A stretch of 60,329 nt of DNA from Lentisphaerae bacterium RIFOXYC12_FULL_60_16 (GCA_001803315.1 MHBQ01000039.1:1-60329), one strand, 5' to 3'. Shown: positions 2-12,719, counted from the stretch's first letter. Made by a program: numbers and translations. Notes: a model not told the origin generated them from the sequence alone.

Positions 2-112
2 TCCGATGCCCAGATTGCGGCCGTTATGAAGTGTACGCGGAAATCGGTCGAAGCGCGTCTGTACCGCGCGCGGCACTTCCTCCGCCGGCAACTTGCGGCC
101 CTGCTTGGTTAG
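2..112 (+). CDS. ECF RNA polymerase sigma factor, C-terminal fragment (truncated by window edge)
   Basis: Manual translation SDAQIAAVMKCTRKSVEARLYRARHFLRRQLAALLG* matches the sigma region 4.2 HTH pattern; followed by anti-sigma-like and metal-sensor genes. Confidence 0.85.
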   Translation, partial: SDAQIAAVMKCTRKSVEARLYRARHFLRRQLAALLG

Positions 113-167
113 ATCCCTATGGGTTCAAGGGGCAGGCGGGTGGCGAATTCTCTTTTTTGAGTTTCCT

Positions 168-196
168 GCGAGGGTTTTTCCGGGCGGCGGCGTTAC
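168..196 (+). promoter_or_regulatory. Possible ECF-sigma promoter
   Basis: GCGAGGG...CGTTAC spaced like -35/-10 boxes upstream of the anti-sigma gene; resemblance to ECF promoters is by eye. Confidence 0.3.
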
Positions 197-225
197 ACGA
201 GTTGGAGGGGAGGGTAGGAAAACAT

Positions 226-597
226 ATGAAAGGTCGACCTTTTAATCCGAAAAAAAGCCCTATTCAGGACGACGACTGTGGTCTAACCGCGTTGCTTCAC
301 GCTTGGAAAGGCATGGAACCGCACGCCGGCTTCGAAACGGCTGTCTGGCAACGTATTCACGCCGTTTCCGCCCCGAAATTGCCGGGTTTTTCGATATTAG
401 ACCGCCTGCGTGAATGGGTTGTGCCGTATCCGGCCTGGGCCAGTGCCATGGCCGCTGCCGCGGGAATTGTATTCGGTGTCGGCCTGGCGTTTTCCATGCC
501 GGCTATGCGCGACAGCCGTCATGCCGGCGAACCGTTGCTGCATTCGCAGACACTGGCTGGATCCTATCTCACCATGACGACCGGAGGGCCCCGATGA
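226..597 (+). CDS. Putative membrane anti-sigma factor
   Basis: ATG226 after a purine-rich SD; N-terminal LLHAW...FETAVWQRI, one TM helix; lies between sigma and sensor genes. Confidence 0.65.
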   Translation: MKGRPFNPKKSPIQDDDCGLTALLHAWKGMEPHAGFETAVWQRIHAVSAPKLPGFSILDRLREWVVPYPAWASAMAAAAGIVFGVGLAFSMPAMRDSRHAGEPLLHSQTLAGSYLTMTTGGPR

Positions 598-1067
598 ATA
601 AGCAAATAATCGGTTTTCTGGCCATCGCCCTGGCTGCGGCCTTCGTGGCGTACGGAGTTACAAGGAGGGCCGTTTGTGGACGGGACTGTTCGCCCCTCAA
701 CCGCTTGGAAGATGTGTCGTTCCTGATCCTGGAATTGGAGCTCAATGCTGAACAGGCTGCGGGAATCAAGCGGTTGCATGTGGATTTTGGCGCGACGATG
801 AACGATTGCTGTATGAACCATTGCGGGGCTCGCGCGCGCCTGGGACAGGCGTTGGCGAACGAGACCGCCGATAACCCCGCGCCGGCGGATGCCATGGTCG
901 CCGAGATGTGCCGCGCTTACGAGAACGGCGAATACGCCGCGCTTTCGCACATTCGCCGCGTCAGGGATTGGTTGAGCCCGGAACAGAAGGAGAAATTCAA
1001 CCGGTTGATTGCAGATACCGTGTGCCAGGCCTGCCCGGCCTGTGCGGCTCGTTCGCCGGCTCGTTGA
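594..1067 (+). CDS. Periplasmic heavy-metal sensor (CnrX/ZraP/Spy-CpxP-like)
   Basis: N-terminal TM; LELNAEQ and LSPEQKEKF LTxxQ-type repeats; Cys/His/Met-rich (NDCCMNHC, CQACPAC); ATGA overlap with upstream gene. Confidence 0.8.
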   Translation: MNKQIIGFLAIALAAAFVAYGVTRRAVCGRDCSPLNRLEDVSFLILELELNAEQAAGIKRLHVDFGATMNDCCMNHCGARARLGQALANETADNPAPADAMVAEMCRAYENGEYAALSHIRRVRDWLSPEQKEKFNRLIADTVCQACPACAARSPAR

Positions 1068-1206
1068 TATAAGATATTGCGTCATGGATAGTAGGGGTTT
1101 CCCCCATATACATTGGATGATGCATGTTCTACAAAGGCCTTTCGTTTCGTGTGATACGATGGTGGTAGGAATAAAGGAAAACGGGGTCACGGACCCAGGA
1201 AAGAAT

Positions 1207-1248
1207 ATGGAAAAAGATCCCATCTGCGGGATGAAGGTGGAGTCATGA
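1207..1248 (+). pseudogene. YHS-domain N-terminal remnant MEKDPICGMKVES*
   Basis: DPxCGM is the typical YHS start; its stop overlaps the TolC start (ATGA). Confidence 0.55.
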
Positions 1249-2705
1249 TCATGAAGAAGCCGGAAAATACCATCGGGTCCAGCGGAAGGCTGGAATCCGT
1301 CTTTTGTTCGTTCGGTTTCTGTCGGCTGGTTCTGACACTGGGCGGAGGACTGTGGTTGACCAGTTGTGTTTCTGTTCCCGAGCGGGACCTGCGTGCCAGA
1401 CACGATGAAGCGCATCGCATCATGTATGCGGCGCCGGACACCCCGGACGCAAAACCGCGGTTTAACGGGAATTCGACGCTCGATGACTATCTCCATCATG
1501 CCTTTTCGCATAATCCCGGGCTGCGCGCATCGTTCGACCGATGGGCGGCGGCCATGGAGCGAATTCCGCAGGCGCGATCGCTGGACGATCCGACGCTGTC
1601 GTTCGAGTATTTCATCGAGCAAATGGACACCCGCTACCAGGCGAGTCTGACGCAGATGTTCCCGGCGTTCGGAAAGCTGGATCTTCGCGAAAAAAGCGCG
1701 GCGGCGGAAACCGAGGCGGCCATGCATGCTTTCGAAGCGGAGCGCCTGGTCCTGTTCGATCACGTGGTTAAGGCGTTTCACGAATACCATTACCTGTCGC
1801 GAGCCACCCAGGTGACGGACGAAAACCACCAACTCCTCTCCGATCTTGAACAGGTCGTGACCATCCGTTACAAGGCCGGATTGGCGCCCTTCTCCGATCT
1901 CATCAAGACCCAGGTGGAGAAAGACCGACTCGCCAACGAATTGGGTACGCTACGTGATGAACGCGCATCGCGGTCGGCGGGACTTGCCGCTCTGCTCGGA
2001 CTTCCGGTGTATGACGTGCTTTCCTGGCCAAAGGCTTCCCCCTCCGGGCCGGCGATCGTGGACGTGGAGTCGCTCGACGACATGCTGGAGGACCTGAACC
2101 CGGAATTGAAGGCCGCGACAGCGATGATTGCCGCCGAGACCTATCGTGAGAAACTGGCGCGCAAGCGTGTTCTGCCGGACTTCATGCTCGGCGCGAGCTG
2201 GATGGTCATGCCCGGCATGGAGGGGAAAGGTGACGAGACCGATGTGGGTCTCATGGCGGGCATTACGATCCCCGTCTGGTGGGGAAGGTACCGCGCGGAA
2301 ATCCGGGAAGCCGAGGCCATGGTTCAGGCAGCGACCAGCGAGCGCGAGAACATGCGGAACATGCTCAAGGCCGAATTGAGCATGGCGGTCTTCAAGTTCC
2401 ACGACGCGGAGCGAAGGATCAATCTTTTCACAACCTCGCTGGTTCCCAAAGCCACGCAGGCGCTGGAGGTGGCCAAACAGGAATTTTCGACCGGAAAAGC
2501 GGAATTCATGACGCTGATCGATGCCCAGCGCACCCTGCTCGAATTCCGGCTGATGCTGGAACGGGCGACGGCGGACCGGGAAATCGCGATCGGGGAGACC
2601 GGACGCAGTGTCGGCAAGTATGATGTCGGAGTAAAGCTGGACGTTCCCGTGCCGGTAAAAAATAAAGACGCTTCGAATAAAGAAAGAGGAGAAAAAGATG
2701 ATTAG
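1245..2705 (+). CDS. TolC-family outer membrane efflux lipoprotein (CusC-like)
   Basis: Lipobox-like WLTSC, two OEP repeats (HNPGL, LNPEL), LIDAQRTLL; upstream of cusBA. Confidence 0.9.
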   Translation: MIMKKPENTIGSSGRLESVFCSFGFCRLVLTLGGGLWLTSCVSVPERDLRARHDEAHRIMYAAPDTPDAKPRFNGNSTLDDYLHHAFSHNPGLRASFDRWAAAMERIPQARSLDDPTLSFEYFIEQMDTRYQASLTQMFPAFGKLDLREKSAAAETEAAMHAFEAERLVLFDHVVKAFHEYHYLSRATQVTDENHQLLSDLEQVVTIRYKAGLAPFSDLIKTQVEKDRLANELGTLRDERASRSAGLAALLGLPVYDVLSWPKASPSGPAIVDVESLDDMLEDLNPELKAATAMIAAETYREKLARKRVLPDFMLGASWMVMPGMEGKGDETDVGLMAGITIPVWWGRYRAEIREAEAMVQAATSERENMRNMLKAELSMAVFKFHDAERRINLFTTSLVPKATQALEVAKQEFSTGKAEFMTLIDAQRTLLEFRLMLERATADREIAIGETGRSVGKYDVGVKLDVPVPVKNKDASNKERGEKDD

Positions 2706-2835
2706 AACGATTGCGATGATTGCTATGGTCTTTGTTATGAGCCTGGCGGCGGGCGGTTGCGCTTCCTACGGAGACTATGACGGTGCGCGAGCGCCTTACG
2801 GAACGGGTGGCGGTCATGGGGGAGGATGCCATTGA
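2698..2835 (+). CDS. 45-aa putative lipoprotein ending GHGGGCH
   Basis: MIRTIAMIAMVFVMSLAAGGCASYGDYDGARAPYGTGGGHGGGCH*; SD AGAGGAG; start overlaps the TolC end; not in ORF track. Confidence 0.65.
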   Translation: MIRTIAMIAMVFVMSLAAGGCASYGDYDGARAPYGTGGGHGGGCH

Positions 2836-2897
2836 GTCAACAATCGGACGGGTTGCGAACAGCGATCCGTCGCAGAGTCGGCAGAAAGGCGGTGAAG

Positions 2898-2969
2898 ATG
2901 CCGAGACTCATGATGTTGGTCTTTGCGTTGGCGGCGGCTGTGATCCTTGTGGGTTGTAACTGTCACTGA
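2898..2969 (+). CDS. 23-aa putative micro-lipoprotein (mature CNCH)
   Basis: MPRLMMLVFALAAAVILVGCNCH*; SD-like AAAGGCGGTG; n-region, h-region and LVGC lipobox; not in ORF track. Confidence 0.5.
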   Translation: MPRLMMLVFALAAAVILVGCNCH

Positions 2970-3030
2970 CGAGAAGCGTGGCGAGAGAAAACAGAAGCAA
3001 ATCGAAAAGTATAGAAAGGATTCGGTTATC

Positions 3031-3582
3031 ATGAAAAGCATGACATTAGGAATTGGTCTTTTGGTCGGCGGATTGTTGGCGGGATCGTCGGCGCTGGCGC
3101 AGGGTGGCGGACATGACCATCCGACGCACGCAGGCAAGCACGAGCCCGCGAGCCAGGAACAAAAAACGGAAATCAAATTGCAGACAACCTGTCCGGTCAT
3201 GGGCGGCGCGATCGACAAGCATCTGTATGTCGATCACGAGGGCAAACGCGTCTACATCTGTTGCAAGGGTTGTGAGGCGCCGCTAAAGAAGGATCCGGCC
3301 AAGTATATCAAGGCCCTCGAAGCCGAGGGCATTACCGTGGCCAAACTTCAAACCGAATGCCCGGTGATGGGCGGCGCGATCGATAAGGCGCTATACGTGG
3401 ATCACGCCGGCAAGCGAATCTACGTGTGTTGCCAGGGATGCATTGCCACGGTCCAGAAAGACCCCGCGAAAACCATCAAGTCAATGGAAGCGGCGGGGGT
3501 GGCTCTGCACCCTGCAGTCAAGGACGCCAAACCCGCCGAGCCGAAGAAAGAGGCCGTGGGCCACGAAGGGCATAAGCACTGA
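3031..3582 (+). CDS. Secreted His-rich protein with two YHS-like domains
   Basis: Signal peptide; two repeats QTxCPVMGGAIDK.LYVDH.GKR.Y.CC.GC; His-rich ends. Confidence 0.85.
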   Translation: MKSMTLGIGLLVGGLLAGSSALAQGGGHDHPTHAGKHEPASQEQKTEIKLQTTCPVMGGAIDKHLYVDHEGKRVYICCKGCEAPLKKDPAKYIKALEAEGITVAKLQTECPVMGGAIDKALYVDHAGKRIYVCCQGCIATVQKDPAKTIKSMEAAGVALHPAVKDAKPAEPKKEAVGHEGHKH

Positions 3583-3654
3583 TCAGAGGTGGCGGGTGGT
3601 GTTAGGCTCGCTTGACACCTATCCCCCAACACCTGACACCTGGAGGTATGGACT

Positions 3655-4161
3655 ATGAACATAGACCACAAAGATATGGCGTACAGGATTGTCGGCCTGG
3701 TCGGACTGGCGCTGTTGTTGGGGCTTGTCCTTTGGGCGCACCAGCCTCGCGGGTCAGCGACGCCGGCGCACGATCATGCCGATCCAGCGCATCACCGGCA
3801 TGCCGTATCTGGCAAACCGTTGGATGCGGAGCGCGCGGATACGCTGACACCCAGCGGCCAGGCAGAGAACGGTGTGCGAGTCGTTGACTACGACGCATTC
3901 CAGTACGGCTTCGACCCGGACCCCTTGGTCGTTCGCGCCGGGGAACGGGTGCGCCTGCAGTTAAAGAGCCGGGATGTCTCCCACGGCGTGATGATTCCCG
4001 AAGTGGACTTTTCGACGGATATCCCGACGGGTGAGCGCAAGGCGGCGGAATTCGTCGCGCCCGCTGAGCCGGGAGAATATCCGGTGTTCTGCAGTGTCTT
4101 TTGCGGTTCCGGCCACGGGGATATGACCGGGCGCATGGTTGTGTTGCCGGCCGAGCTATGA
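3655..4161 (+). CDS. Membrane-anchored cupredoxin with CuA-type site (COX2 C-terminal-like)
   Basis: DVSHG plus CSVFCGSGHGDM (H...CxxxCxxxHxxM); N-terminal TM, His-rich linker. Confidence 0.85.
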   Translation: MNIDHKDMAYRIVGLVGLALLLGLVLWAHQPRGSATPAHDHADPAHHRHAVSGKPLDAERADTLTPSGQAENGVRVVDYDAFQYGFDPDPLVVRAGERVRLQLKSRDVSHGVMIPEVDFSTDIPTGERKAAEFVAPAEPGEYPVFCSVFCGSGHGDMTGRMVVLPAEL

Positions 4162-4943
4162 ACCTGAATGAAATGAACGCCATCCGTAAACTAAAGAACC
4201 CCAAGACGCCATTGCTGATCCTGTTAGCGGCGCTGGCCATTTTCGGGCTTGTCGGCGGCCACGACGTTTCGCTGAAACTGGCGATTCTGGGGACTTCCCT
4301 GACGGCCGCCATGCTGGCCGAGTGGGCGCTTTTCGGCGCTGTGCCGCTCGCCGTCCTTCAGAGTGCGGCAATCAGCGGGGGAATCGTCGGCCTGTTGGTT
4401 GCGCCCGGCGCGGACCCACGCTTCGCATGGACGGCCGCCGTGCTTGCGATCGCGTCCAAGAAATTGCTCGTCTTTCATGAGGGCAAGCACATTTTCAATC
4501 CGGCGGCCTTCGGCCTGGTGGTCTCCATGATGATTTTCGGCAACCGGATCAACTGGTGGGGAAACACCTCAGCTGTGCTCGTGATCGTTGGCGGTGGATT
4601 GATCCTGATGCGACTACGGCGACTCTCACTGCCGTTCGCCTACTTCATCGCCAGAACGGCCGGCATTGTCCTGTTGACCAGCATTAACGCGGGACGCGCC
4701 GCCTTATTGCTACCGAACCTGTTTTTCGCTTTCATCATGCTGGTCGAGCCGAAAACATCCCCGGGCAAGCGCCCCGAACAATGGATATTTGGCGGGATAT
4801 GCGGCATTCTGGCAACAACATTTTATCACTTCGCGTCTGTATTCGAGGGCGATCTTCTGGCATTGTTAACCGTAAACCTACTGCGGCCGTGGCTGACCAT
4901 TCGGCTTGCGGCCTTGCAGGACAACAAGAGGACGAGTTCATGA
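4158..4943 (+). CDS. Stand-alone RnfD/NqrB-family membrane protein
   Basis: Multi-TM; IASKK...HIFNPAAFG and FAFIMLVEPKTSP motifs. Confidence 0.75.
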   Translation: MNLNEMNAIRKLKNPKTPLLILLAALAIFGLVGGHDVSLKLAILGTSLTAAMLAEWALFGAVPLAVLQSAAISGGIVGLLVAPGADPRFAWTAAVLAIASKKLLVFHEGKHIFNPAAFGLVVSMMIFGNRINWWGNTSAVLVIVGGGLILMRLRRLSLPFAYFIARTAGIVLLTSINAGRAALLLPNLFFAFIMLVEPKTSPGKRPEQWIFGGICGILATTFYHFASVFEGDLLALLTVNLLRPWLTIRLAALQDNKRTSS

Positions 4944-5134
4944 AAAGTCATTCCCTGTTGCGTTCACTGGCGGTGTTAGGCCTCTCCGCACTGATTGTGT
5001 TCGGGACTGCGGGCTGTATTTGCATGTTGCCGCATTTGTTCGGACACCGGTCGGACACGCATTTCAGCAAGGCCGGTCCTGGCACTGGAACAAACCATGT
5101 CCCCCACGTTCACGAACCGATTCCCAGCAATTAG
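4940..5134 (+). CDS. His-rich small lipoprotein
   Basis: MKSHSLL...GTAGC-ICMLPH...HVPHVH; ATGA overlap with upstream gene. Confidence 0.6.
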   Translation: MKSHSLLRSLAVLGLSALIVFGTAGCICMLPHLFGHRSDTHFSKAGPGTGTNHVPHVHEPIPSN

Positions 5135-5168
5135 CACTGGGGATGTTTAAGAGAAGAAGAAAGGGAGT

Positions 5169-7139
5169 ATGAGCATGAAGGAAGCCATGGAAGGATTAGC
5201 GCGCGGCAAAAGAACCCTTCTTGCCGTCGCCCTGGCGACATTTGCGTTGGGATTTGCGCTGAGAGGCTGCTTATTTTCGCGTCATGTGTCCGAAAAAACT
5301 GACGGAGCCGGGCCTACGGCCCGGGCCGCCGAAGTCTGGACCTGCTCCATGCATCCGCAGATTCGTCAGCCCAAGCCTGGGAAGTGCCCGATCTGCGCCA
5401 TGGATTTGATCCCCGTGGCGGGCGACTCCGGCTCGGAGGCGGGCGTGCCCCGCCAGATAACGCTTTCGCCATCCGCGCGCAAACGGGCGGAAGTCGTTGT
5501 GGCGCCGGTGGAACGTCTTGCCGTGGAGGTTGAAATTCGCATGGTTGGCAAGGTACAATTTGATGAGACCCGCCTGGCTTATATCGCTCCGCGTGTCGCG
5601 GGTCGGATTGACCGGCTATACGCGAATTTTGCCGGTATGCCGGTGAAGTCCGGCGACCATCTGGCTGACATGTACAGCCCCGAGATGGTGGCGGCCCAGC
5701 AGGAGCTGCTGCAGGCCGTACAATCGGCGGGCGGCGCGTCCGCTTCCGCGACGCTGCTCAACGCCACACGTGAGCGTCTGCGGCTTTGGGGCCTGACGGC
5801 CGAACAGATCGCGGAGATTGAACGTAGCGGCCAGGTGCGCGATCATGTGACGTTCTATTCGCCGATCGGCGGGATCGTGGTGGAAAAGGAGGCGCGGGAA
5901 GGCCAGTACGTAGAGACCGGAATGCGCCTGTTTACCGTGGCGGACCTGACCCGCGTATGGGTACAGCTCGACGCCTATGAGTCCGATCTGGCATGGCTGC
6001 GTTATGCCCAGGACGTTGAGTTTCAGGCGGAGGCGTATCCGGGTGAAACTTTCAAAGGCACGATTGCTTTTATTGACCCGATTCTCAACCCGATGACGCG
6101 AACGGTCAAGGTGCGTGTCATCGTGGCGAATGCCGACGGCCGGCTGAAACCGGAGATGTTTGTCCGTGCGGTGGTCAAAGCCGCCGTGGCCGGTGACGGC
6201 AAGGTGTTGCGGAGCGATCTGCGCGGCAAATGGATCAGCCCCATGCATCCGGAAATCGTCAAAGACGGTCCGGGCGCCTGCGACGTATGCGGAATGCCCC
6301 TCGTGCGAGCCGAGGAACTGGGGTATGTTGACGCGGATGAGACGGATGTCGTCCTGCCGCTGGTGGTTCCCGTGTCGGCGCCCCTGGTTACCGGTAAACG
6401 CGCCATGGTTTATGTCGCTTTGCCGAAGGAAGAAGGCGTCTATGAAGGGCGCGATGTGGTCCTGGGTCCGCGGGCGGGCGACTACTACCTTGTGAAAGAA
6501 GGCCTGAAAGCGGGTGAGCGGGTGGTGGTCCATGGCGCCTTCAAGCTCGACAGCTCCCTGCAAATCCAGGGCAAACCCAGCATGATGGCGCCCGATGGCG
6601 GATCTGCGCCGGTCGAACACCTGCCCGGCGAAGCCTCGCCGGCGGTTCTTCCGGTGGTTGCGGCACCGGAAGCGTTCCGGAAGCAGGTGGACCTTGTCCT
6701 GGACAGCGTTCTGACCATGGCCGATGCGTTGGCCGACGATAGTCTGGAAGCCGCGCGTACGAACGCTTCTCAAGCCAAGAAGGCCCTGGCGGAGGTGGAT
6801 ATGTCTCTTCTCGCCGGGGATGCCCATGCGCGCTGGATGCAGTCGTTAAAGGTTTTGAACCTGTCTTTGGACCAGTTGATCCCGGCAAAAGACATCGAAT
6901 CTTTCCGCACCGCATTTTCTTCGCTGTCGTCCGAGATGGCGCGCGTCGTCAAGACGTTCGGTCCGGTCCGAACCGAACCGATCTATGAAATACATTGTCC
7001 CATGGCGTTTGAGAATCGCGGCGCCAATTGGCTGCAGAAGGACCAGGCTGTCCGGAATCCCTATTTCGGAAAATCCATGCTGATGTGCGGCGAAGTAAGT
7101 GAGACGATTCCGTCCGGGGGAGGTCACAGCCATGAGTGA
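5169..7139 (+). CDS. cusB: RND periplasmic adaptor, CusB-like, with heavy-metal-binding domains and C-terminal DUF3347-like domain
   Basis: WTCSMHPQI...CPICAMDL, SPMHP...CDVCGM, LKPEMF, HCPMAF...NPYFG..MLMCG. Confidence 0.9.
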   Translation: MSMKEAMEGLARGKRTLLAVALATFALGFALRGCLFSRHVSEKTDGAGPTARAAEVWTCSMHPQIRQPKPGKCPICAMDLIPVAGDSGSEAGVPRQITLSPSARKRAEVVVAPVERLAVEVEIRMVGKVQFDETRLAYIAPRVAGRIDRLYANFAGMPVKSGDHLADMYSPEMVAAQQELLQAVQSAGGASASATLLNATRERLRLWGLTAEQIAEIERSGQVRDHVTFYSPIGGIVVEKEAREGQYVETGMRLFTVADLTRVWVQLDAYESDLAWLRYAQDVEFQAEAYPGETFKGTIAFIDPILNPMTRTVKVRVIVANADGRLKPEMFVRAVVKAAVAGDGKVLRSDLRGKWISPMHPEIVKDGPGACDVCGMPLVRAEELGYVDADETDVVLPLVVPVSAPLVTGKRAMVYVALPKEEGVYEGRDVVLGPRAGDYYLVKEGLKAGERVVVHGAFKLDSSLQIQGKPSMMAPDGGSAPVEHLPGEASPAVLPVVAAPEAFRKQVDLVLDSVLTMADALADDSLEAARTNASQAKKALAEVDMSLLAGDAHARWMQSLKVLNLSLDQLIPAKDIESFRTAFSSLSSEMARVVKTFGPVRTEPIYEIHCPMAFENRGANWLQKDQAVRNPYFGKSMLMCGEVSETIPSGGGHSHE

Positions 7140-10100
7140 GTTGCCTTCCTCACCGCCTCATCCCGTCAAGAATCCTTCGTTGCTGGACCGGGTGATACGA
7201 TTCTGTCTGGAGAACAAGCTGGTGGTCGTCCTGATCGTAATTGCCACGATGGTCTGGGGCGCCATGGTGGCGCCGTTCGACTGGGACGTGGGCGGTCTCA
7301 TCCGCGACCCGGTTCCGGTGGACGCCATCCCGGACATTGGCGAAAACCAGCAGATTGTGTTTACCGAATGGGAAGGCCGCTCGCCGCAGGACATCGAGAA
7401 CCAGATCACCTATCCGCTGACCGTCTCGCTCCTCGGTATTCCCAAGGTCAAAACGATCCGCAGTCGGTCCATGTTCGGATTCTCTAGCATTTTCATCATT
7501 TTCGAGGAAGACGCCGAGTTTTACTGGACGCGCAGTCGGGTGCTCGAGAAATTGAGCAGTCTTCCTGCCGGAGTGCTGCCGGAAGGCGTGCAGCCCACCC
7601 TTGGGCCGGATGCCACGGCGCTGGGCCAGGTCTTTTGGTACACCTTGGAAGGCCTGGATGAGGACGGCATCCCAACCGGCGGGTGGGGACTGGATGAATT
7701 GCGTGGCATCCAGGACTGGCATGTCCGTTTTGCGCTGCTTTCCGCCGAAGGCATCAGCGAAGTCGCTTCCGTGGGCGGCTACGTTCAGGAGTATCAGATT
7801 GACGTGGATCCCGACGCGCTCCGCGCGCACGATGTGACGCTGGACGATGTCTATCGCGCGGTGAAGGAGTGTAATCTGGATATTGGGGCCCGCTCCATCG
7901 AGATCAACAAGGTCGAATACCTTATCCGCGGCATCGGATTCATCAAAACGCTGGCCGACATTGAGGAGGCCGTTCTCCGTGTCCGGGATGGGGCGCCGCT
8001 GCAGGTGCGGCATGTAGCCAGAGTGTCCAAAGGGCCGGCATTTCGACAGGGTGCGCTCGACAAGGAAGGCGCCGAGGCGGTTGGCGGTGTGGTGGTCGTG
8101 CGATATGGCGCCAACCCGTTGAAATCCATTCAGAACGTCAAAGCCGAGATTGAGCGGATTGCGCCCGGTTTGCCGCGCAAAGCGATCATTGACTTTACCC
8201 GAACTACCCGGACGGAGGTCGAGGGGGTGGCGCGCGAGCAGGGCTTCGAAGCCTACTCCGGCGCCGAACTGAACCAGGACGCTTGGGTGAAATGGCTGCG
8301 GAGTGTCCCGAAAGCGCAACAGCCCGACTGGGTGAAGCTCAGTCAGGTGAAAATCGTGCCGTTTTACGATCGCACAGGGCTTATCTACGAAACGCTCGGC
8401 ACGCTCAGTAGTGCGCTGTACCTGCAAATCCTGGTTACCATCATTGTGGTTCTCGTCATGGTGACGCACCTGCGCAGTTCGGCGCTGATTTCGGCCGTGA
8501 TGCCGGTGGCGGTGGCCATGTGCTTCATCTTTATGAAGGTGTTTGGTGTGGACGCAAACATTGTGGCCCTCAGTGGTATTGCCATCGCCATCGGCACCGT
8601 GGTGGATATGGGAATTCTTGTGTGCGAGAACATCCTGCGCCATCTCGACGAGGCGACGCCGAATGAAAATCGCCTGGAGACGATTTATCGCGCCGCGAGC
8701 GAAGAGGGTAGCGCCGTGCTGACCGCCGTCTGCACCACCGTCGTCAGCTTCATGGCCGTCTTTGCCTTGGAAGGCGCCGAAGGAAAGCTGTTCAAGCCGT
8801 TGGCGTTCACCTACATCTTCGTGCTTGCCTCGTCGCTGGTGGTCGCACTCACCATTGTCCCTGCGTTGGCCCATGTGTTGATCGTCGGAAAGGGAGCCCC
8901 CCCCCGGCGGGGTATGCCGGGACGGCTGAAGACTTTGGGTCTGGCGTTGCTCTTCGGCACAGGGGTGGCGCTGGCCATCGTTGTGAACCGGTGGGTCGGG
9001 GCGCTGGTTGCGGCGTTTGCGGTCTGGCAATACAGTTCTGCCTGGATTCCCGAACGAATCCTGAAAGGCATGCATCGTTCGGGGATCTGGCTGGTCGTAT
9101 TCGCCGTGGCTGCATGGCTCACGACCCGATGGCTGCCGGTCGGACCGGAGAAAGGGTTTATCCGGAATTTTCTGTGGATGGGGGGCGCCATCGGTTCCAT
9201 TCTCGGCATCTTTCTTGGTTATCGCAAGCTGTATCCGCGCATGCTGCGCTGGTGCCTGGACCACAAACTGTTGTTTGCGGTCGTTCCGGCCATCGTTTAC
9301 GTTTTCGGTCTGCTGGCGTGGCTGGGCTTCGAACGGCTGTTCGGCTGGCTGCCGGAGCCGGTGAAGCGATTTGCGCCGGTCTCCTGTGTGCTGCACGCGT
9401 TTCCCGGTCTGGGCAAGGAATTCATGCCGCCGTTGGACGAGGGCTCCTACCTCTTTATGCCAACGACCATGCCGCATGCGAGCATCGGGGAAGCGCTCGA
9501 TGTGCTTCAGAAGCAGGATATGGCCATGCTCGGGGTGCCGGAGATTGATAGTGCGGTTGGAAAATTGGGCCGGGCCGACACGCCGCTGGATCCCGCGCCG
9601 ACCGAAATGTTCGAGACGGTGATCAACTATAAGCCGCAATTTCTGAGCGACCGCGACGGGCGACGGCTCCGGTTCAAGCATGATCCGGATGACACCGATC
9701 TGTTTCGGACGCCGGACGGCGCCCCGGTCGCCGCGCCTGACGGCGAACCTTACACCGTGCCGGGGCGGTTCGAGCGCGATGCCGATGGCCGCCTCATTCC
9801 CCATCCGCGAGGCAAACCGTTCCGTCTCTGGCGGCCCGCGCTGGATCCTGCCCTGAATCCGGGCCGTGTGGCCTGGGAGGGAATCCGTGAGCCCGACGAT
9901 ATCTGGAATGCCCTGGTCAAGGCGGTGGAATTGCCCGGCACCACCTCGGCGCCGCGCTTGCAACCGATTGCCGCGCGAATCGTCATGCTACAAAGCGGCA
10001 TGCGCGCGCCCATGGGTGTTAAAGTCAAAGGCCCCACGCTGGAGGCGATCGAGGAGACCGGCTTCCAGATCGAGAAATTCCTCAAGGACGTTCCGTCCGT

Positions 10101-11244
10101 GGAGGCCAATACCGTCATCGCCGATCGCGTTATCGGCAAGCCGTATCTTGAAATCCACATTAACCGGGAGTCTGCCGCACGTTACGGGGTTTCGATTGCC
10201 AGCGTGCAGGAGGCCATCGAGGTGGCCGTGGGCGGCAAGCGCATTACGACCACCGTGGAAGGCCGTGAGCGCTACCCGGTGCGTGTCCGGTATCCACGCG
10301 AGTTGCGGGATTCCGTCGAAACATTGCAGCGCATCCTGATTGCAGGCGAGGGCGGCGCACAGGTGCCGCTTGCGCAGGTGGCCGACATTGAGTACGTCCG
10401 CGGTCCGCAGGAGATCAAGAGTGAAGACACCTTCCTGACCGGCTATATTTTGTTCGACAAAAAGCCGGACCGGGCCGAAGTGGACGTGGTTGAGGAATGC
10501 GCCCGCTACCTGAACCACAAGATGGAGACCGGTGAATTCATCCTGCCGCCGAATGTGTCGTTCCGCTTCGCGGGGAGCTATGAAAATCAACTCCGATCCG
10601 AGAAAAAACTGATGGTTGTATTACCGATGTCGCTTTTCATCATTTTCCTCATCCTCTATCTCCAGTTCCGCGACATTCCGACGGCGATGCTGGTGTTCGT
10701 GGATATCGCGTCCTCATGGATGGCGGGGTTCATTATGCTGTGGCTGTATGCCCAGCCCTGGTTCCTCGATTTTGCTCCGTTCGGCGTGAATCTGCGCGAA
10801 CTGCTGCAGATCCACCCCGTCAACCTCAGCGTGGCGATCTGGGTGGGTTTTCTCGCCCTTTTCGGCATTGCCACCGACGATGGCGTCGTCTTGTCAACCT
10901 ATCTCAATGACTGCTTCGCCGGAACGGAAGTCGGATCCAAACACGATATCCGGGAGCTTACGGTTCAGGGCGCCAGCCGCCGTGTGCGCGCTTGCCTGAT
11001 GACCACCGCCACGACCGTGATTGCCTTTCTGCCAGTGTTCACGTCCACCGGTCGCGGTTCCGACGTCATGCGGCCCATGGCCATCCCGGTCTTCGCCGGC
11101 ATGATGATGGCCATTATCACGCCCATCTTTGTGCCCGTGCTCTATTGCCTGCTGAAGGAAATCAAGTTTGTCCTGCGGCTGCCGGACTGTGTTCTTCGCA
11201 TTGCCGTAGCACGGGAACCGGGGACTGAAGGGCGGGCGTCGTGA
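7132..11244 (+). CDS. cusA: Heavy-metal RND permease, CusA-like
   Basis: PVDAIPDIGENQQIVFTEW, GPDATALG, EFMPPLDEG; Met triad equivalents FMPTT, EMFET, VMLQSG indicate the Cu(I)/Ag(I) type. Confidence 0.95.
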   Translation: MSELPSSPPHPVKNPSLLDRVIRFCLENKLVVVLIVIATMVWGAMVAPFDWDVGGLIRDPVPVDAIPDIGENQQIVFTEWEGRSPQDIENQITYPLTVSLLGIPKVKTIRSRSMFGFSSIFIIFEEDAEFYWTRSRVLEKLSSLPAGVLPEGVQPTLGPDATALGQVFWYTLEGLDEDGIPTGGWGLDELRGIQDWHVRFALLSAEGISEVASVGGYVQEYQIDVDPDALRAHDVTLDDVYRAVKECNLDIGARSIEINKVEYLIRGIGFIKTLADIEEAVLRVRDGAPLQVRHVARVSKGPAFRQGALDKEGAEAVGGVVVVRYGANPLKSIQNVKAEIERIAPGLPRKAIIDFTRTTRTEVEGVAREQGFEAYSGAELNQDAWVKWLRSVPKAQQPDWVKLSQVKIVPFYDRTGLIYETLGTLSSALYLQILVTIIVVLVMVTHLRSSALISAVMPVAVAMCFIFMKVFGVDANIVALSGIAIAIGTVVDMGILVCENILRHLDEATPNENRLETIYRAASEEGSAVLTAVCTTVVSFMAVFALEGAEGKLFKPLAFTYIFVLASSLVVALTIVPALAHVLIVGKGAPPRRGMPGRLKTLGLALLFGTGVALAIVVNRWVGALVAAFAVWQYSSAWIPERILKGMHRSGIWLVVFAVAAWLTTRWLPVGPEKGFIRNFLWMGGAIGSILGIFLGYRKLYPRMLRWCLDHKLLFAVVPAIVYVFGLLAWLGFERLFGWLPEPVKRFAPVSCVLHAFPGLGKEFMPPLDEGSYLFMPTTMPHASIGEALDVLQKQDMAMLGVPEIDSAVGKLGRADTPLDPAPTEMFETVINYKPQFLSDRDGRRLRFKHDPDDTDLFRTPDGAPVAAPDGEPYTVPGRFERDADGRLIPHPRGKPFRLWRPALDPALNPGRVAWEGIREPDDIWNALVKAVELPGTTSAPRLQPIAARIVMLQSGMRAPMGVKVKGPTLEAIEETGFQIEKFLKDVPSVEANTVIADRVIGKPYLEIHINRESAARYGVSIASVQEAIEVAVGGKRITTTVEGRERYPVRVRYPRELRDSVETLQRILIAGEGGAQVPLAQVADIEYVRGPQEIKSEDTFLTGYILFDKKPDRAEVDVVEECARYLNHKMETGEFILPPNVSFRFAGSYENQLRSEKKLMVVLPMSLFIIFLILYLQFRDIPTAMLVFVDIASSWMAGFIMLWLYAQPWFLDFAPFGVNLRELLQIHPVNLSVAIWVGFLALFGIATDDGVVLSTYLNDCFAGTEVGSKHDIRELTVQGASRRVRACLMTTATTVIAFLPVFTSTGRGSDVMRPMAIPVFAGMMMAIITPIFVPVLYCLLKEIKFVLRLPDCVLRIAVAREPGTEGRAS

Positions 11245-11357
11245 ACGCCGTGGCTCGGGGACTTGGACGTCGATGTCGCTTCCCTGGAAGCGCGAAAAGG
11301 GGGGGGACGGGAAACGAGGAGTATATGTGTAGGACGGACGTAAAAGGAGGTGCGAGA

Positions 11358-11696
11358 ATGAGAGCGACGCATTGTGCAAGAGTATGGCTCGTTGCAGGCC
11401 TGTTGGTCTGCGGAACCGCCTTATCGGCGCTGGTCACCGGTTGCGGAACCGTCGGACAATCATCAACGGTCGAGTCCGGTGCTCTCTGCCCGACCTGTAA
11501 CCGGAAAGTCGCCCGGTTCCACCCGAAGCGGGGGACGACATACCGGAAAGTGGCCTGCCCGTCGTGCGGTACGGTCAGAGTACTCGACACGCAAGTGGGT
11601 ACGGACGAACTCGTCCATATGTGTGAGCGTTGCGGACAGCTTGTCGACAAGTGCCCGGAGTGCAGAAAACAGGCTGACCCATTAAAGCAACCGTAA
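11358..11696 (+). CDS. Lipoprotein with four CxxC motifs (double zinc-ribbon-like)
   Basis: SD AAAGGAGG; lipobox VTGC; CPTC, CPSC, CERC, CPEC. Confidence 0.7.
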   Translation: MRATHCARVWLVAGLLVCGTALSALVTGCGTVGQSSTVESGALCPTCNRKVARFHPKRGTTYRKVACPSCGTVRVLDTQVGTDELVHMCERCGQLVDKCPECRKQADPLKQP

Positions 11697-12509: not shown

Positions 12510-12719
12510 ACGATCCTTGCCTTGCTTCCCCTCCTGACGTCTGTAGGCCGTGGTGCGGACGTGATGAAGCCGATGGCGATTCCCTCAGTCGGTGGGATGG
12601 CGGTGAGTCTGATCACACTGTTCATCGTGCCGCGCGTGTTTTGTGCCGTGGAGGAATGGAAGTGGAAACGGGCGCATCAAACGGTTTCGGAGCCGCTCCG
12701 TGGAATGACTGACCGCTGA
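12510..12719 (+). pseudogene. Orphan 3' fragment of a second cusA-like gene
   Basis: TILALLPLLTSVGRGADVMKPMAIPSVGGM aligns with TVIAFLPVFTSTGRGSDVMRPMAIPVFAGM in the intact CusA C-terminus. Confidence 0.85.

What the first reader, a model, noticed from the sequence alone, without database searches (positions are those of the whole stretch)
2..11696. Extended Cu/Ag efflux locus with an embedded redox module and four small metal-ligand lipoproteins
Seen: between TolC and CusB lie two micro-lipoproteins, a double-YHS protein, a CuA-motif cupredoxin, a stand-alone RnfD-like protein and a His-rich lipoprotein, several with overlapping start/stop codons; a 4xCxxC lipoprotein follows cusA; a sigma/anti-sigma/sensor trio lies upstream. 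Known: cusCFBA has only CusF as accessory, and CnrYXH-type trios control Ni/Co RND pumps. Inference: a possibly undescribed copper system coupling periplasmic capture and redox change to CusA export under ECF control.
Basis: partly seen in the sequence, partly recalled or inferred. Interest (0 to 1): 0.75.

Follow-up and report, generated by a model that had tools for sequence, protein, structure and literature searches.

The report
Copper pump with CuA–RnfD-like module
A copper/silver efflux operon from an oxidase-less groundwater bacterium carries a conserved, apparently undescribed gene pair, a membrane-anchored CuA copper protein and a stripped-down RnfD-type membrane protein, that probably form a complex helping anaerobes handle copper.

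Summary
Bases 2-11696 encode an ECF sigma tail, a putative anti-sigma, a Metal_resist-like protein, an outer-membrane factor, two micro-lipoprotein ORFs, a double YHS/TRASH protein, a CuA cupredoxin, a lone RnfD-like protein, a His-rich lipoprotein, CusB, CusA and a 4xCxxC lipoprotein.

The pump is a true Cu(I)/Ag(I) CusA type: the three metal-binding Met align with E. coli CusA.

The new part is the cupredoxin/RnfD-like pair.
- The two genes are joined by an ATGA overlap.
- The cupredoxin lies directly upstream of the RnfD-like gene in 23 of 80 genome loci and 10 of 10 metagenome loci, across several phyla.
- Most of these loci also hold Cus-type pumps, YHS proteins, Cu-type P-ATPases or CsoR repressors.
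- The cupredoxin is most like Thermus ba3 oxidase subunit II, with all CuA ligands invariant. Yet 10 of 11 host genomes show no oxidase subunit I.
- The RnfD-like protein lacks the flavinylation loop.
- A complex model passes its controls (0.71 against 0.09). It puts the CuA loop on the loop that replaces the FMN site.

Best reading: an oxygen-independent periplasmic copper redox or handling complex serving Cus export.

The micro-lipoproteins, the His-rich lipoprotein and ECF control are not conserved. No expression data exist.

The parts
2..112 (+). C-terminal 36 residues of an ECF/sigma-70 factor (region 4), cut by the contig start
   Evidence: Frame-2 translation. NCBIfam sigma-factor models, E 2.5e-4 to 6e-3. 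The window is C39:1-60329.
226..597 (+). Putative anti-sigma factor, 123 aa with one TM segment
   Evidence: ORF. No Pfam or NCBIfam hit. The role is inferred only from its position between the sigma tail and the Metal_resist-like gene.
594..1067 (+). Periplasmic Metal_resist/LTXXQ-like (CnrX/Spy-type) protein, Cys-rich
   Evidence: PF13801 24.5 bits (cut-off 29.2) and PF07813 23.3 bits (cut-off 24.3). Both are below cut-off.
1245..2705 (+). Outer-membrane factor (TolC/CusC type)
   Evidence: PF02321 E 2.6e-45. TolC/NodT subfamily hits.
2698..2835 (+). Micro-lipoprotein ORF 1 (45 aa). The mature part is Gly-rich and ends in Cys-His.
   Evidence: AGAGGAG lies 6 nt upstream of the ATG, and the ORF overlaps the OMF stop. 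Not found in relatives.
2898..2969 (+). Micro-lipoprotein ORF 2 (23 aa). Lipobox LVGC; the predicted mature peptide is only Cys-Asn-Cys-His.
   Evidence: Not found in relatives. Its status as a gene is unproven.
3031..3582 (+). Secreted double YHS/TRASH protein with His-rich N- and C-termini. Likely the soluble periplasmic metallochaperone, in place of CusF.
   Evidence: YHS, TRASH and ATPase-cat_bd hits, all below cut-off. Two repeated C...CCxxC units are visible. Homologues occur in 11 of 23 paired genome loci by tblastn, plus L075 by Pfam. No CusF in the genome.
3655..4161 (+). Single-TM-anchored CuA cupredoxin (168 aa) with a His-rich linker
   Evidence: PF13473 and PF00116 above cut-off. 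Best solved relative is Thermus ba3 oxidase subunit II, E 8.5e-22. H110, C146, C150, H154 and M157 are invariant in 17 of 17.
4158..4943 (+). Stand-alone short RnfD/NqrB homologue (261 aa, about 10 TM) without the flavinylation loop
   Evidence: PF03116 53.2 bits. Two-block alignment to RnfD with about 43 residues missing between the blocks. 0 of 39 family members carry [ST]GA[TS]. AF2 pLDDT 93.4. Foldseek hits RnfD/NqrB at TM about 0.7.
4940..5134 (+). His-rich lipoprotein (64 aa). The mature part starts Cys-Ile-Cys-Met.
   Evidence: ATGA overlap with the RnfD-like stop, and AAGAGGA upstream. Not found in relatives. Other lineages have different small secreted Cys/Met/His proteins at this position.
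5169..7139 (+). CusB-type membrane-fusion protein with HMBD (2 matched stretches) and a C-terminal DUF3347
   Evidence: PF16576 E 2.1e-79, PF19335 E 1.6e-23 (2 stretches), PF11827 E 8.4e-17. CusB subfamily NF007303 E 3.9e-38.
7132..11244 (+). CusA-type Cu(I)/Ag(I) RND pump, long form (1370 aa)
   Evidence: TIGR00914 700.2 bits against cut-off 701.45. Aligns to E. coli CusA with Met at all three triad positions. The TM4 motif A-x5-D-x6-E is visible.
11358..11696 (+). Lipoprotein with four CxxC motifs (two zinc-ribbon-like knuckle pairs)
   Evidence: Weak zinc-ribbon hits. Strong SD (AAAGGAGGTG) before the ATG at 11358. Homologue just after cusA in L109 (E 7e-14) and L105 (E 2e-4).

Best explanation
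The locus is a genuine Cu(I)/Ag(I) CusCBA-type RND efflux operon, probably acquired by gene transfer, in a bacterium that shows no haem-copper oxidase, no multicopper oxidase and no CusF.

A conserved accessory set is built into it:
(i) a secreted double YHS/TRASH protein that most likely does the CusF job, soluble periplasmic capture and hand-over;
(ii) a two-protein inner-membrane complex.

The complex has two parts. One is a ba3-subunit-II-like protein with one TM helix, a His-rich linker and a complete binuclear CuA site. The other is a 10-TM RnfD/NqrB homologue whose flavin-carrying loop has been replaced by a short Asn-Trp-Trp-Gly loop. In the model the cupredoxin's TM helix packs against the RnfD-like helices. 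Its CuA loop sits on the periplasmic Trp-Trp loop, where RnfD would hold its FMN.

Most likely mechanism (inferred, not shown): the pair is a small, oxygen-independent one-electron relay between the membrane and periplasmic copper. The membrane side would be the quinone pool or a non-covalently bound flavin in the RnfD-like subunit. His-rich segments would catch Cu(II). The CuA centre would set the redox state, most plausibly Cu(II) to Cu(I), the only form CusBA exports. The reverse, anaerobic Cu(I) oxidation, is also possible. The ion is then passed to YHS/CusB/CusA.

Shown here: gene content, conservation of the pair and of its copper context, intact CuA ligands, loss of the flavinylation loop, and a complex model that passes its controls.
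Inferred: the cofactor in the RnfD-like subunit, the direction of electron flow, and the hand-over to Cus.

The small lipoproteins are lineage-specific additions, if they are genes at all.
For: The pump is Cu(I)/Ag(I) type.
- It aligns to E. coli CusA (E 4.5e-26) with Met at all three triad positions.
- TIGR00914 scores 700.2 bits.

The pair is conserved.
- A cupredoxin lies directly upstream of the RnfD-like gene in 23 of 80 genome loci and 10 of 10 metagenome loci.
- On the RnfD-like tree the window sits in a clade of 12 rows (SH-aLRT 98), all paired. It spans Lentisphaerota, Planctomycetota and a gammaproteobacterium.
- The pairing label needs 5 changes on the tree, against 20.9 in shuffles (0 of 500 as low).

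The context is copper.
- A CusA/CzcA-type pump is in 15 of the 23 paired loci.
- A YHS-fused P-type ATPase is next to the pair in L028, and the C-terminal end of a P-type ATPase (HAD hydrolase domain) in L075.
- CsoR-family repressors precede it in L058 and L109.

The cupredoxin looks like a real CuA subunit.
- H110, C146, C150, H154 and M157 are invariant in 17 of 17.
- Its best solved relative is ba3 oxidase subunit II, E 8.5e-22, the same 166-168 aa size. NosZ comes next.

It is an orphan.
- No COX1 in the window's genome (85.75% complete).
- No COX1 in 9 of 10 other genomes with the pair; the tenth has one 40-bit fragment with a stop.
- It is the only COX2 or Cupredoxin_1 hit in the genome.
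- No CusF and no multicopper oxidase.

The RnfD-like protein is an RnfD/NqrB homologue without the flavin site.
- RnfD fold: pLDDT 93.4, Foldseek TM about 0.7 to RnfD/NqrB.
- About 43 RnfD residues between the two aligned blocks are missing.
- 0 of 39 members have [ST]GA[TS].

The complex model passes.
- ipSAE 0.71 (runs 0.70, 0.71, 0.72). Best of 3 controls 0.09.
- This mark was reached by 58 of 80 solved complexes and by 2 of 110 mismatched pairs.
- The runs share at least 61% of contacts, and the partner pLDDT is at least 76.
- The interface joins the cupredoxin TM (3-29) and CuA loop (145-158) to RnfD-like residues 46-62, 82-95, 128-139 (including invariant W133 and W134) and 184-190.

Translational coupling: ATGA overlaps at both ends of the RnfD-like gene.

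Precedent: RnfD/NqrB-like subunits without the flavinylated Thr that dock a membrane-anchored extracytosolic redox domain are described as NQR/RNF-like systems (10.1101/2024.03.13.584918, section 8 read; 10.1101/2021.01.07.425746, passages).
Against: - No expression or metal-induction data: every sequence is from a metagenome, and no RNA run holds the stretch.
- The complex is a prediction only.
- The RnfD-like protein has no recognisable cofactor site, no NAD-binding domain and no cytoplasmic partner in the operon. A route for electrons is therefore not visible.
- Its invariant residues (K101, N114, P115, W133, M194, P198 and others) are shared with subfamilies that have no cupredoxin. They reflect a general property of the membrane protein, not CuA docking.
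- 5 of the 23 paired genome loci (L003, L004, L016, L017, L018) show no copper gene in the DNA held. Some sit on short contigs.
- In several loci the RND pump is only 34-48% identical and could export another metal.
- Pfam PF13473 also contains CupA, a membrane-anchored Cu(I) chaperone. A cupredoxin in a copper operon therefore need not be redox-active.
- Making more Cu(I) in the periplasm is risky unless export is tightly coupled.
Confidence: 0.5

Rival explanations
1. Copper trafficking, not electron transfer. The cupredoxin uses its Cys2His2Met binuclear site and His-rich linker as a membrane-tethered Cu(I) chaperone, like CupA or CusF. The RnfD-like protein, whose fold is related to Amt and urea channels, would be its anchor or a copper (or counter-ion) channel. 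That would be analogous to the periplasmic CopC plus membrane CopD pair of cop/pco operons.
For: - PF13473 includes CupA, a TM-anchored Cu(I) chaperone with a cupredoxin fold (PMC5552934, two passages).
- M. xanthus has a His-rich PF13473 protein in a copper-tolerance operon (PMC3707914, Table 1 passage).
- The RnfD-like protein has lost its flavin site. Weaker Foldseek rows are Amt/Rh/urea channels, TM 0.37-0.54.
- Distant short RnfD-like genes sit beside ArsP_1 (some YHS-fused) and CitMHS/ArsB-like permeases.
- Conserved polar residues H111, E197 and M194 lie in the two most conserved motifs.
Against: - The full canonical CuA ligand set, including both His, is invariant in 17 of 17.
- The profile's best solved relatives are oxidase subunit II and NosZ. 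CupA is not among the 60 best shown of 123 hits.
- A buried CuA centre is a poor exchange site (established knowledge, recalled).
- Passive Cu+ exit through a channel would run against the membrane potential.
Confidence: 0.25
2. The pair has nothing to do with detoxification. It would be a copper-dependent respiratory or other electron-transfer device. It sits in copper islands only because it needs copper for its own CuA site, or because it travels with them by gene transfer.
For: - CuA centres are otherwise known only in terminal oxidases and N2O reductase (one search hit list; general knowledge).
- The module looks horizontally mobile. No close homologue occurs in the 63 other genomes of the window's order (best other hit E 1e-8, which are true RnfD/NqrB).
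- 5 of the 23 paired loci show no copper gene.
Against: - The pair lies inside the operon, between the OMF and CusB, with overlapping stop and start codons.
- The same internal position recurs in L002, L008, L013, L105 and L109.
- Copper regulators (CsoR) and copper ATPases flank it where Cus is absent.
- No catalytic subunit (COX1) was found in 10 of 11 genomes. NosZ was not searched for.
Confidence: 0.1
3. The two micro-lipoprotein ORFs (2698-2835, 2898-2969), and perhaps the His-rich lipoprotein, are not genes. They would be chance ORFs in a 326-nt spacer between the OMF and the YHS gene, so the 'four small lipoproteins' shrink to one or two.
For: - No homologue in any of the 90 related loci, by tblastn at E up to 1 in the 10 metagenome loci and by a lipobox pattern scan in 15 loci.
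- The nearest full relatives have no room for them (L109, L008).
- A loose lipoprotein filter also picks 8 other small ORFs in the window that look like chance.
Against: - All three have SD-like sequences at the right distance. Two overlap the stop of the gene before them.
- The two micro-ORFs are adjacent, both have clean hydrophobic signal regions, and both end in Cys-His, unlike the other 8.
- Other lineages carry different small secreted Cys/His/Met-rich ORFs after the RnfD-like gene. Variable small metal binders therefore seem to be a feature of these operons.
Confidence: 0.35

Closest known systems
E. coli CusCFBA copper/silver efflux system
   Same: OMF, CusB-type adaptor and CusA-type RND pump in one operon. 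The three Met of the CusA metal site align. The TM4 pattern is A-x5-D-x6-E (sequence; the motif's meaning is recalled).
   Different: - No CusF anywhere in the genome.
- CusB carries HMBD (2 matched stretches) plus DUF3347.
- CusA is about 1370 aa, with an insert of about 83 aa in the periplasmic domain and extra hydrophobic segments.
- Six extra genes lie between OMF and CusB, and one follows CusA.
- The upstream regulator is an ECF trio, not CusRS.
Subunit II of ba3-type cytochrome c oxidase (Thermus thermophilus) and other CuA domains
   Same: Best solved relative, E 8.5e-22 over the whole domain. Chain length 166-168 aa. Complete CuA ligand set. The single N-terminal TM helix of ba3 subunit II is recalled.
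   Different: - No subunit I in the genome or in 9 of 10 other carriers.
- The predicted partner is an RnfD homologue.
- It has a His-rich linker.
- It sits in a copper-efflux operon.
NQR/RNF-like two-subunit systems (Meheust et al. 2021; 2024 preprint 10.1101/2024.03.13.584918)
   Same: An NqrB/RnfD-like membrane subunit that has lost the flavinylated Thr is predicted to bind a membrane-anchored extracytosolic redox domain directly. Structural neighbours of the window protein in the ESM Atlas include such NAD_binding_1 and FMN_bind fusions.
   Different: - Those systems are defined by a fused cytosolic NAD-binding domain (PF00175) and an FMN_bind partner in a flavinylation cluster. Here both are absent.
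- The partner here is a CuA cupredoxin.
- Those papers do not mention copper or cupredoxin: 0 occurrences in the two main texts.
CupA of Streptococcus pneumoniae (PF13473 Cu(I) chaperone)
   Same: Same Pfam family, an N-terminal TM anchor, a cupredoxin fold, and a role in copper resistance (PMC5552934 passages).
   Different: [quoted passage not shown] That its soluble domain faces the cytoplasm is recalled.
- The window protein keeps the canonical CuA H...C-x3-C-x3-H-x2-M site.
- It is modelled on the periplasmic face of its partner.
- It scores best against oxidase subunit II.
CopC/CopD (PcoC/PcoD) of cop/pco operons
   Same: A periplasmic beta-sandwich copper protein paired with a polytopic inner-membrane protein inside a copper-resistance locus. 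This is an analogy in layout, recalled.
   Different: No sequence or family relation. No CopC or CopD family was listed for any of the operon proteins scanned (Pfam/NCBIfam tables).
CnrYXH / ECF sigma, anti-sigma and periplasmic sensor trios
   Same: The same gene order of sigma tail, one-TM protein and Metal_resist-like periplasmic protein lies upstream of an HME-RND operon.
   Different: - The sensor scores below the Pfam cut-off.
- The anti-sigma has no family hit.
- The sigma gene is cut by the contig end.
- The pump is Cu(I) type rather than Ni/Co.
- The trio is not conserved with the module.

Membership tests
CusCBA (HME-RND, Cu(I)/Ag(I) class) | RND permease of the CusA/CzcA family | tested here: met
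   PF00873 E 2.3e-158. TIGR00914 scores 700.2 bits, 1.25 bits under its cut-off of 701.45. Best solved relative is E. coli CusA, E 4.5e-26 for a 260-aa part.
CusCBA (HME-RND, Cu(I)/Ag(I) class) | Three-methionine metal site of CusA (M573, M623, M672; numbering recalled) | tested here: met
   In the alignment, Met stands at chain positions 580, 630 and 679 of 4dnt_A (native numbering minus 7). The window protein has Met at all three.
CusCBA (HME-RND, Cu(I)/Ag(I) class) | CusB-type adaptor and an outer-membrane factor in the operon | tested here: met
   PF16576 E 2.1e-79 and NF007303 E 3.9e-38 for the adaptor. PF02321 E 2.6e-45 for the OMF.
CusCFBA | CusF periplasmic chaperone | tested here: not met
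   PF11604 finds nothing in the genome (85.75% complete). The control rings in E. coli.
CuA domain / COX2 (PF00116) | Binuclear-site ligands H...C-x3-C-x3-H-x2-M | tested here: met
   H110, C146, C150, H154 and M157 are invariant in 17 of 17. PF00116 scores 23.8 bits against cut-off 22.
Haem-copper oxidase subunit II | Partner subunit I (PF00115) in the genome | tested here: not met
   0 matches in G000. 0 matches in 9 of 10 other carriers; the tenth has a 40-bit fragment with a stop.
RnfD/NqrB (PF03116) | Family profile above the gathering score, and the RnfD fold | tested here: met
   53.2 bits against 27.7. RnfD 7zc6_D, E 1.8e-16. Foldseek TM 0.70-0.72 to RnfD.
RnfD/NqrB (PF03116) | Flavinylated Thr in the [ST]GAT loop | tested here: not met
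   About 43 RnfD residues between the aligned blocks are replaced by about 4. 0 of 39 family members carry [ST]GA[TS]. That the missing stretch holds the Thr is recalled. It fits NqrB T236 lying before the aligned block that starts at 275.
Rnf or Nqr complex | Neighbouring rnfABCEG or nqrACDEF genes | tested here: not met
   The flanking genes are the cupredoxin and a lipoprotein. Three full-length RnfD/NqrB genes lie on other contigs.
NQR/RNF-like system (Meheust et al.) | RnfD-like domain fused to an NAD-binding domain (PF00175), plus an FMN_bind or ApbE neighbour | tested here: not met
   The protein is 261 aa with PF03116 only. No FMN_bind, ApbE or PF00175 hit among the operon proteins. 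The definition is read.
CupA-type Cu(I) chaperone | [quoted passage not shown] | tested here: not met
   The loop reads C-x3-C-x3-H-x2-M. CupA is not among the 60 best solved hits shown.
CnrYXH-type ECF trio | ECF sigma, membrane anti-sigma and CnrX-like sensor | tested here: inconclusive
   Only a 36-aa sigma tail is present. The anti-sigma has no hit. The sensor is below cut-off (24.5 against 29.2 bits).

The most novel reading that the evidence does not exclude
The cupredoxin/RnfD-like pair would be a new kind of minimal two-subunit membrane oxidoreductase. In it a CuA centre takes the place of the covalent flavins of RnfG/RnfD. This would give strict anaerobes an oxygen-independent way to change the redox state of periplasmic copper, wired directly to a Cus pump.

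More broadly, the short flavin-loop-less RnfD family would be a general membrane dock for periplasmic beta-sandwich metal-centre proteins. It pairs with a CuA cupredoxin in 24 of 81 rows. In 36 of 80 loci it lies near an unrelated secreted Ig-like protein of about 115 aa with invariant His-His-His-Cys.
Probability: 0.35. Interest if true: 0.85.

Novelty: new variant of a known kind. Interest (0 to 1): 0.65.

Why it matters
Copper defence is well understood only in aerobes and facultative model bacteria. There CueO or PcoA need oxygen, and CusF feeds the pump. How strict anaerobes manage periplasmic copper is largely open, even though Cu(I) dominates there and is most toxic.

A conserved CuA protein in organisms without any oxidase, docked on an RnfD homologue that has lost its flavin, would be two things. 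It would be a new use of the CuA centre, and a new branch of the Rnf/Nqr membrane-subunit family. It would also name a testable candidate for oxygen-independent copper redox handling.

The pair, together with the YHS protein, is a practical genomic marker for copper/silver resistance islands in PVC-group bacteria, Omnitrophota and related uncultured lineages.

Tried and rejected
- **Expression.** The look-up of sequencing runs listed 8 DNA holders (groundwater metagenomes) and no RNA holder. Nothing can be said on expression, and read laying was not used.
- **Earlier notes of the scan.** Nothing was found by place or by words.
- **Close kin.** The 63 other genomes of the window's order gave no close homologue of the RnfD-like protein, only true RnfD/NqrB at E 1e-8 or weaker. 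Synteny in near relatives could therefore not be read. The contigs of the 76-99% identical proteins P0001-P0005 could not be fetched.
- **Micro-lipoproteins and His-lipoprotein in relatives.** tblastn found nothing credible, at E up to 1e-3 in 80 loci and up to 1 in 10 loci. The one row was lipo2 against L101, 16 aa at E 0.2, inside the RnfD-like gene. A lipobox pattern scan of 15 loci found none. That pattern was strict enough to miss the window's own His-lipoprotein.
- **RnfD-like protein as part of an Rnf/Nqr operon.** Rejected.
- **Cupredoxin as a stray oxidase subunit.** Rejected.
- **Cupredoxin as a CupA-type chaperone by membership.** Rejected. It is kept as a functional rival.
- **Small secreted partner protein of the Omnitrophota subfamily.** It gave no Pfam hit and no solved relative by profile at E up to 10. 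Foldseek gave no row at E 0.001 or better. Superoxide reductases (TM 0.44-0.59 by query) and SoxYZ stand among generic Ig-fold rows. The superoxide-reductase likeness is only a lead.
- **Literature.** Five searches were run: cupredoxin / RnfD / copper resistance; Lentisphaerae / copper / cusA / cupredoxin; YHS domain / CusB / periplasmic; RnfD-like and variants; PF03116 / PF13473. None of the 15 papers listed from the 80 matches contains 'RnfD' (0 occurrences each), and no listed paper holds both PF03116 and PF13473. No paper seen describes the pair.
- **Supplements.** These are closed. Supplementary File 1 of Meheust et al., which holds gene-cluster annotations, could contain such neighbours and was not seen.
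- **Model coordinates.** They were not available to scripts. Where the conserved residues lie in 3D could not be measured. The TM topology given in the report is my reading of the DSSP string and the positive-inside rule.

Full report
**1. What is there**

The window is the first 60,329 bases of contig C39 of a 4.09-Mb genome bin that is 85.75% complete. All runs that hold the stretch are groundwater metagenomes.

Reading the + strand from base 2, the genes are as follows.

| Coordinates | Product | Evidence |
|---|---|---|
| 2-112 | last 36 residues of an ECF-type sigma factor | NCBIfam sigma models, E about 2e-4 |
| 226-597 | one-TM protein in the anti-sigma position | no family hit |
| 594-1067 | Cys-rich periplasmic protein | Metal_resist 24.5 bits and LTXXQ 23.3 bits, both just under cut-off |
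| 1245-2705 | outer-membrane factor | PF02321, E 2.6e-45 |
| 2698-2835 and 2898-2969 | two micro-lipoprotein ORFs, 45 and 23 aa | both end in Cys-His; the second leaves a mature peptide of only four residues |
| 3031-3582 | secreted protein with two YHS/TRASH units and His-rich ends | |
| 3655-4161 | one-TM cupredoxin with the CuA motif | |
| 4158-4943 | 261-aa RnfD-family membrane protein | PF03116, |
| 4940-5134 | His-rich lipoprotein | |
| 5169-7139 | CusB with HMBD (2 matched stretches) and DUF3347 | |
| 7132-11244 | CusA, 1370 aa | |
| 11358-11696 | lipoprotein with four CxxC motifs | |

The cupredoxin/RnfD-like junction and the RnfD-like/His-lipoprotein junction are both ATGA overlaps. 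Every gene except the RnfD-like one has an SD-like sequence upstream. The one caveat is that the sigma gene is only a stump, because the contig ends there.

**2. The pump is a real copper/silver pump**

A 260-residue part of the periplasmic domain aligns to E. coli CusA (E 4.5e-26). Met stands at each of the three positions of the CusA metal site: chain positions 580, 630 and 679 of 4dnt_A, which are native 573, 623 and 672 by my recalled numbering. TM4 reads A-x5-D-x6-E, the monovalent-cation pattern as I recall it from Nies' classification, rather than D-x5-D-x6-E.

TIGR00914 scores 700.2 bits against a cut-off of 701.45. The small shortfall fits the extra length: an insert of about 83 aa is visible.

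The genome shows no CusF, no multicopper oxidase and no haem-copper oxidase subunit I. It does hold three ordinary RnfD/NqrB genes on other contigs.

**3. The conserved novelty is a gene pair**

*Family size.* The RnfD-like protein has about 66 close relatives of 235-278 aa at 45-99% identity. The few that carry names come from Lentisphaeria and Victivallaceae bins, plus one labelled only 'bacterium'.

*Genome loci.* A scan of one genome per species found 339 relatives, and the best 80 loci were kept. tblastn with all window proteins showed a cupredoxin directly upstream of the RnfD-like gene in 23 of the 80. Of these, 16 of 16 full ORFs aligned with the window protein carry the CuA motif.

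*Tree.* On a tree of the 81 RnfD-like proteins, the window lies in a clade of 12 (SH-aLRT 98). All 12 are cupredoxin-paired. They come from Lentisphaerota, a Planctomycetota bin (the nearest, L003), an unclassified bin (L002) and a gammaproteobacterial bin. The pairing label needs 5 changes, against 20.9 in shuffles (0 of 500 as low). Other paired groups come from Omnitrophota, Elusimicrobiota, Myxococcota and a Clostridia bin.

*Metagenome loci.* A metagenome scan added 10 loci, all 10 with the pair. At least five of them look like the same or nearly the same loci as genome loci. L106 has ORFs identical to L007. L104, L105, L107 and L108 give tblastn patterns almost the same as L005, L008, L009 and L011. 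They are not independent.

**4. The context is copper**

- Of the 23 paired genome loci, 15 hold a CusB and/or CusA/CzcA-type gene.
- Eleven hold a YHS protein by tblastn, and L075 adds a twelfth by Pfam.
- L109 and L105 repeat the window's order: OMF, YHS, cupredoxin, RnfD-like, CusB, CusA, CxxC protein. The CxxC match is E 7e-14 in L109 and 2e-4 in L105.
- L002, L008 and L013 also have the pair between the OMF (or YHS) gene and CusB.
- Where no Cus pump is seen, the pair follows a YHS-fused P-type ATPase (L028) or the C-terminal end of a P-type ATPase (L075, HAD hydrolase domain only).
- It follows a CsoR-family repressor in L058. L109 also has a CsoR-family gene just before its OMF.
- Five paired loci (L003, L004, L016, L017, L018) show no copper gene in the DNA held.
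- The ECF trio, the two micro-lipoproteins and the His-lipoprotein were found in no relative. Other lineages have different small secreted Cys/Met/His-rich ORFs, or extra YHS or HMBD proteins, after the RnfD-like gene.

**5. The two proteins**

*Cupredoxin.* Its profile scores best against subunit II of the Thermus ba3 oxidase (E 8.5e-22, whole domain, chains of 166-168 aa). Other COX2 chains, N2O reductase and nitrosocyanin follow. H110, C146, C150, H154 and M157 are invariant in 17 of 17. The 12-clade also keeps an HDHxxPxxHG-like linker.

The cupredoxin is an orphan. It is the only COX2 or Cupredoxin_1 hit in the genome. COX1 is missing in 9 of 10 other carrier genomes; the tenth has a 40-bit fragment with a stop. 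The completeness of those genomes is unknown.

*RnfD-like protein.* It folds with high confidence (pLDDT 93.4) into the RnfD/NqrB fold (TM about 0.7). Its profile aligns to RnfD in two blocks, and about 43 RnfD residues between them are replaced by about four. None of 39 family members has an [ST]GA[TS] motif. It has no NAD-binding domain.

From the DSSP string and the positive-inside rule, I read ten TM helices with the N-terminus inside and the Asn-Trp-Trp-Gly loop (128-138) outside. This topology is inference.

**6. Do they bind?**

The complex model gives ipSAE 0.71 (three runs: 0.70, 0.71, 0.72). The best of three controls is 0.09. This mark was reached by 58 of 80 solved complexes and by 2 of 110 mismatched pairs. 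The runs share at least 61% of contacts, and the partner pLDDT is at least 76. My own alignments were used, so those counts hold only roughly.

The cupredoxin TM helix (3-29) packs on RnfD-like residues 46-62 and 82-95. The CuA loop (145-158) touches residues 128-139, which include the invariant W133 and W134, and also 184-190. All contacts on the RnfD-like side lie on the face I read as periplasmic.

No cupredoxin/RnfD complex is among the solved structures seen, so a pass from memory is unlikely. It remains a prediction.

**7. How it most likely works**

The layout resembles two known arrangements. One is oxidase subunit II sitting on subunit I. The other is the published NQR/RNF-like systems, in which an RnfD-like subunit without the flavinylated Thr is predicted to hold a membrane-anchored extracytosolic FMN domain over an apparent non-covalent flavin site (section 8 of 10.1101/2024.03.13.584918; definition in 10.1101/2021.01.07.425746). 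Here the FMN domain is replaced by a CuA domain, and the fused NAD-binding domain is absent.

An intact, invariant CuA ligand set argues for electron transfer rather than metal hand-over. The operon position argues that periplasmic copper is the partner.

I therefore favour a small oxygen-independent copper redox relay. It would use the quinone pool, or a bound flavin in the RnfD-like subunit, on the membrane side. It would feed Cu(I) to YHS/CusB/CusA, or run in the reverse direction. The many His-rich segments suit Cu(II) capture: in the YHS protein, the cupredoxin linker, the His-lipoprotein and the CusB tail.

The cofactor, the direction and the hand-over are all inferred. The main rival is a CupA/CopCD-like trafficking pair, and it cannot be excluded.

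**8. A wider pattern, noticed**

In the large Omnitrophota-rich clade the cupredoxin is absent. Instead, 36 of 80 loci have a secreted protein of about 115 aa within 3.5 kb of the RnfD-like gene, often overlapping its stop. Its invariant residues include H23, H45, H53 and C102. Its model is an Ig-like sandwich (pLDDT 90.9). It has only weak, non-significant likeness to superoxide reductases and SoxYZ.

Neighbours there include ArsP_1 permeases (one YHS-fused), CitMHS/ArsB-like carriers, a thioredoxin-reductase-like flavoprotein and a Flavodoxin_2 protein. This suggests that short RnfD-like proteins generally partner small periplasmic metal-centre proteins in metal(loid) stress loci.

**9. Comparison, novelty and verdict**

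The efflux core is a member of the CusCBA kind. The cupredoxin meets the CuA-domain definition but not that of an oxidase subunit. The membrane protein meets the PF03116 definition, but not those of RnfD/NqrB proper, of an Rnf/Nqr complex, or of the published NQR/RNF-like systems.

Five literature searches and the passages read turned up no description of a cupredoxin/RnfD-like pair. Supplements were closed and could hold relevant gene tables.

I rate the finding a new variant of a known kind: a Cus-type locus with a conserved, undescribed accessory complex. Interest is 0.65. The synteny prediction is met. The redox role is plausible but unproven. ECF control and the small lipoproteins are local features.

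Noticed in passing
window 12522-12719 (+), with 11713-11985 and 12007-12474 (+): Just downstream of the operon lies a 65-aa ORF. Its first 48 residues are 50% identical to the C-terminus of the operon's CusA (E 2e-14; PF00873 positions 977-1020). It looks like a remnant of a second RND gene. Before it sits an ORF matching the C-terminal part of a type II restriction enzyme model (PADLOC REase_II, E 1.1e-10). No other genome of the order holds a close RnfD-like homologue. Together these points suggest the operon arrived by gene transfer or rearrangement into or beside an older RND locus.
   Followed up: partly
L019:8726-9073, L044:1901-2323 and 34 further loci (Omnitrophota-rich clade): A secreted protein of about 115 aa lies within 3.5 kb of a short RnfD-like gene in 36 of 80 loci, often overlapping its stop codon. 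Its invariant residues include H23, H45, H53 and C102. It has no Pfam hit and no solved relative by profile. The AF2 model is an Ig-like sandwich with only weak likeness to superoxide reductases and SoxYZ. It may be the counterpart of the cupredoxin in that subfamily.
   Followed up: partly
L044:260-2323; L019, L024, L037, L056 around base 8000: Distant short RnfD-like genes sit beside a thioredoxin-reductase-like flavoprotein whose ORF ends 2 nt before the RnfD-like ORF (L044), ArsP_1 permeases (one fused to a YHS domain), CitMHS/ArsB-like carriers and a Flavodoxin_2 protein. This is a metal(loid)/redox context without Cus.
   Followed up: partly
L018:4002-4991: An Elusimicrobiota locus has a second RnfD-like paralogue right after the paired one. 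It is fused to a C-terminal Cys-rich DUF2769 domain.
   Followed up: no
window 7132-11244: This CusA is about 320 aa longer than E. coli CusA. An insert of about 83 aa lies in the periplasmic domain between the second and third Met of the triad. Extra hydrophobic segments follow TM6. Relatives in L008, L010, L012, L104, L105 and L109 align over 1331-1356 residues, so the long form is a lineage trait.
   Followed up: no
L075:1901-3901: In one Omnitrophota locus the pair is followed by a YHS protein, a NIR_SIR/4Fe-4S protein and a DsbD_TM protein. These are further redox genes next to the module.
   Followed up: no
window 594-1067: The Metal_resist-like protein is unusually Cys-rich, with CGRDC, CC..HC and C.AC.AC runs. 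This would suit a thiophilic metal (Cu/Ag) sensor rather than the His-based Ni/Co site that I recall for CnrX.
   Followed up: no
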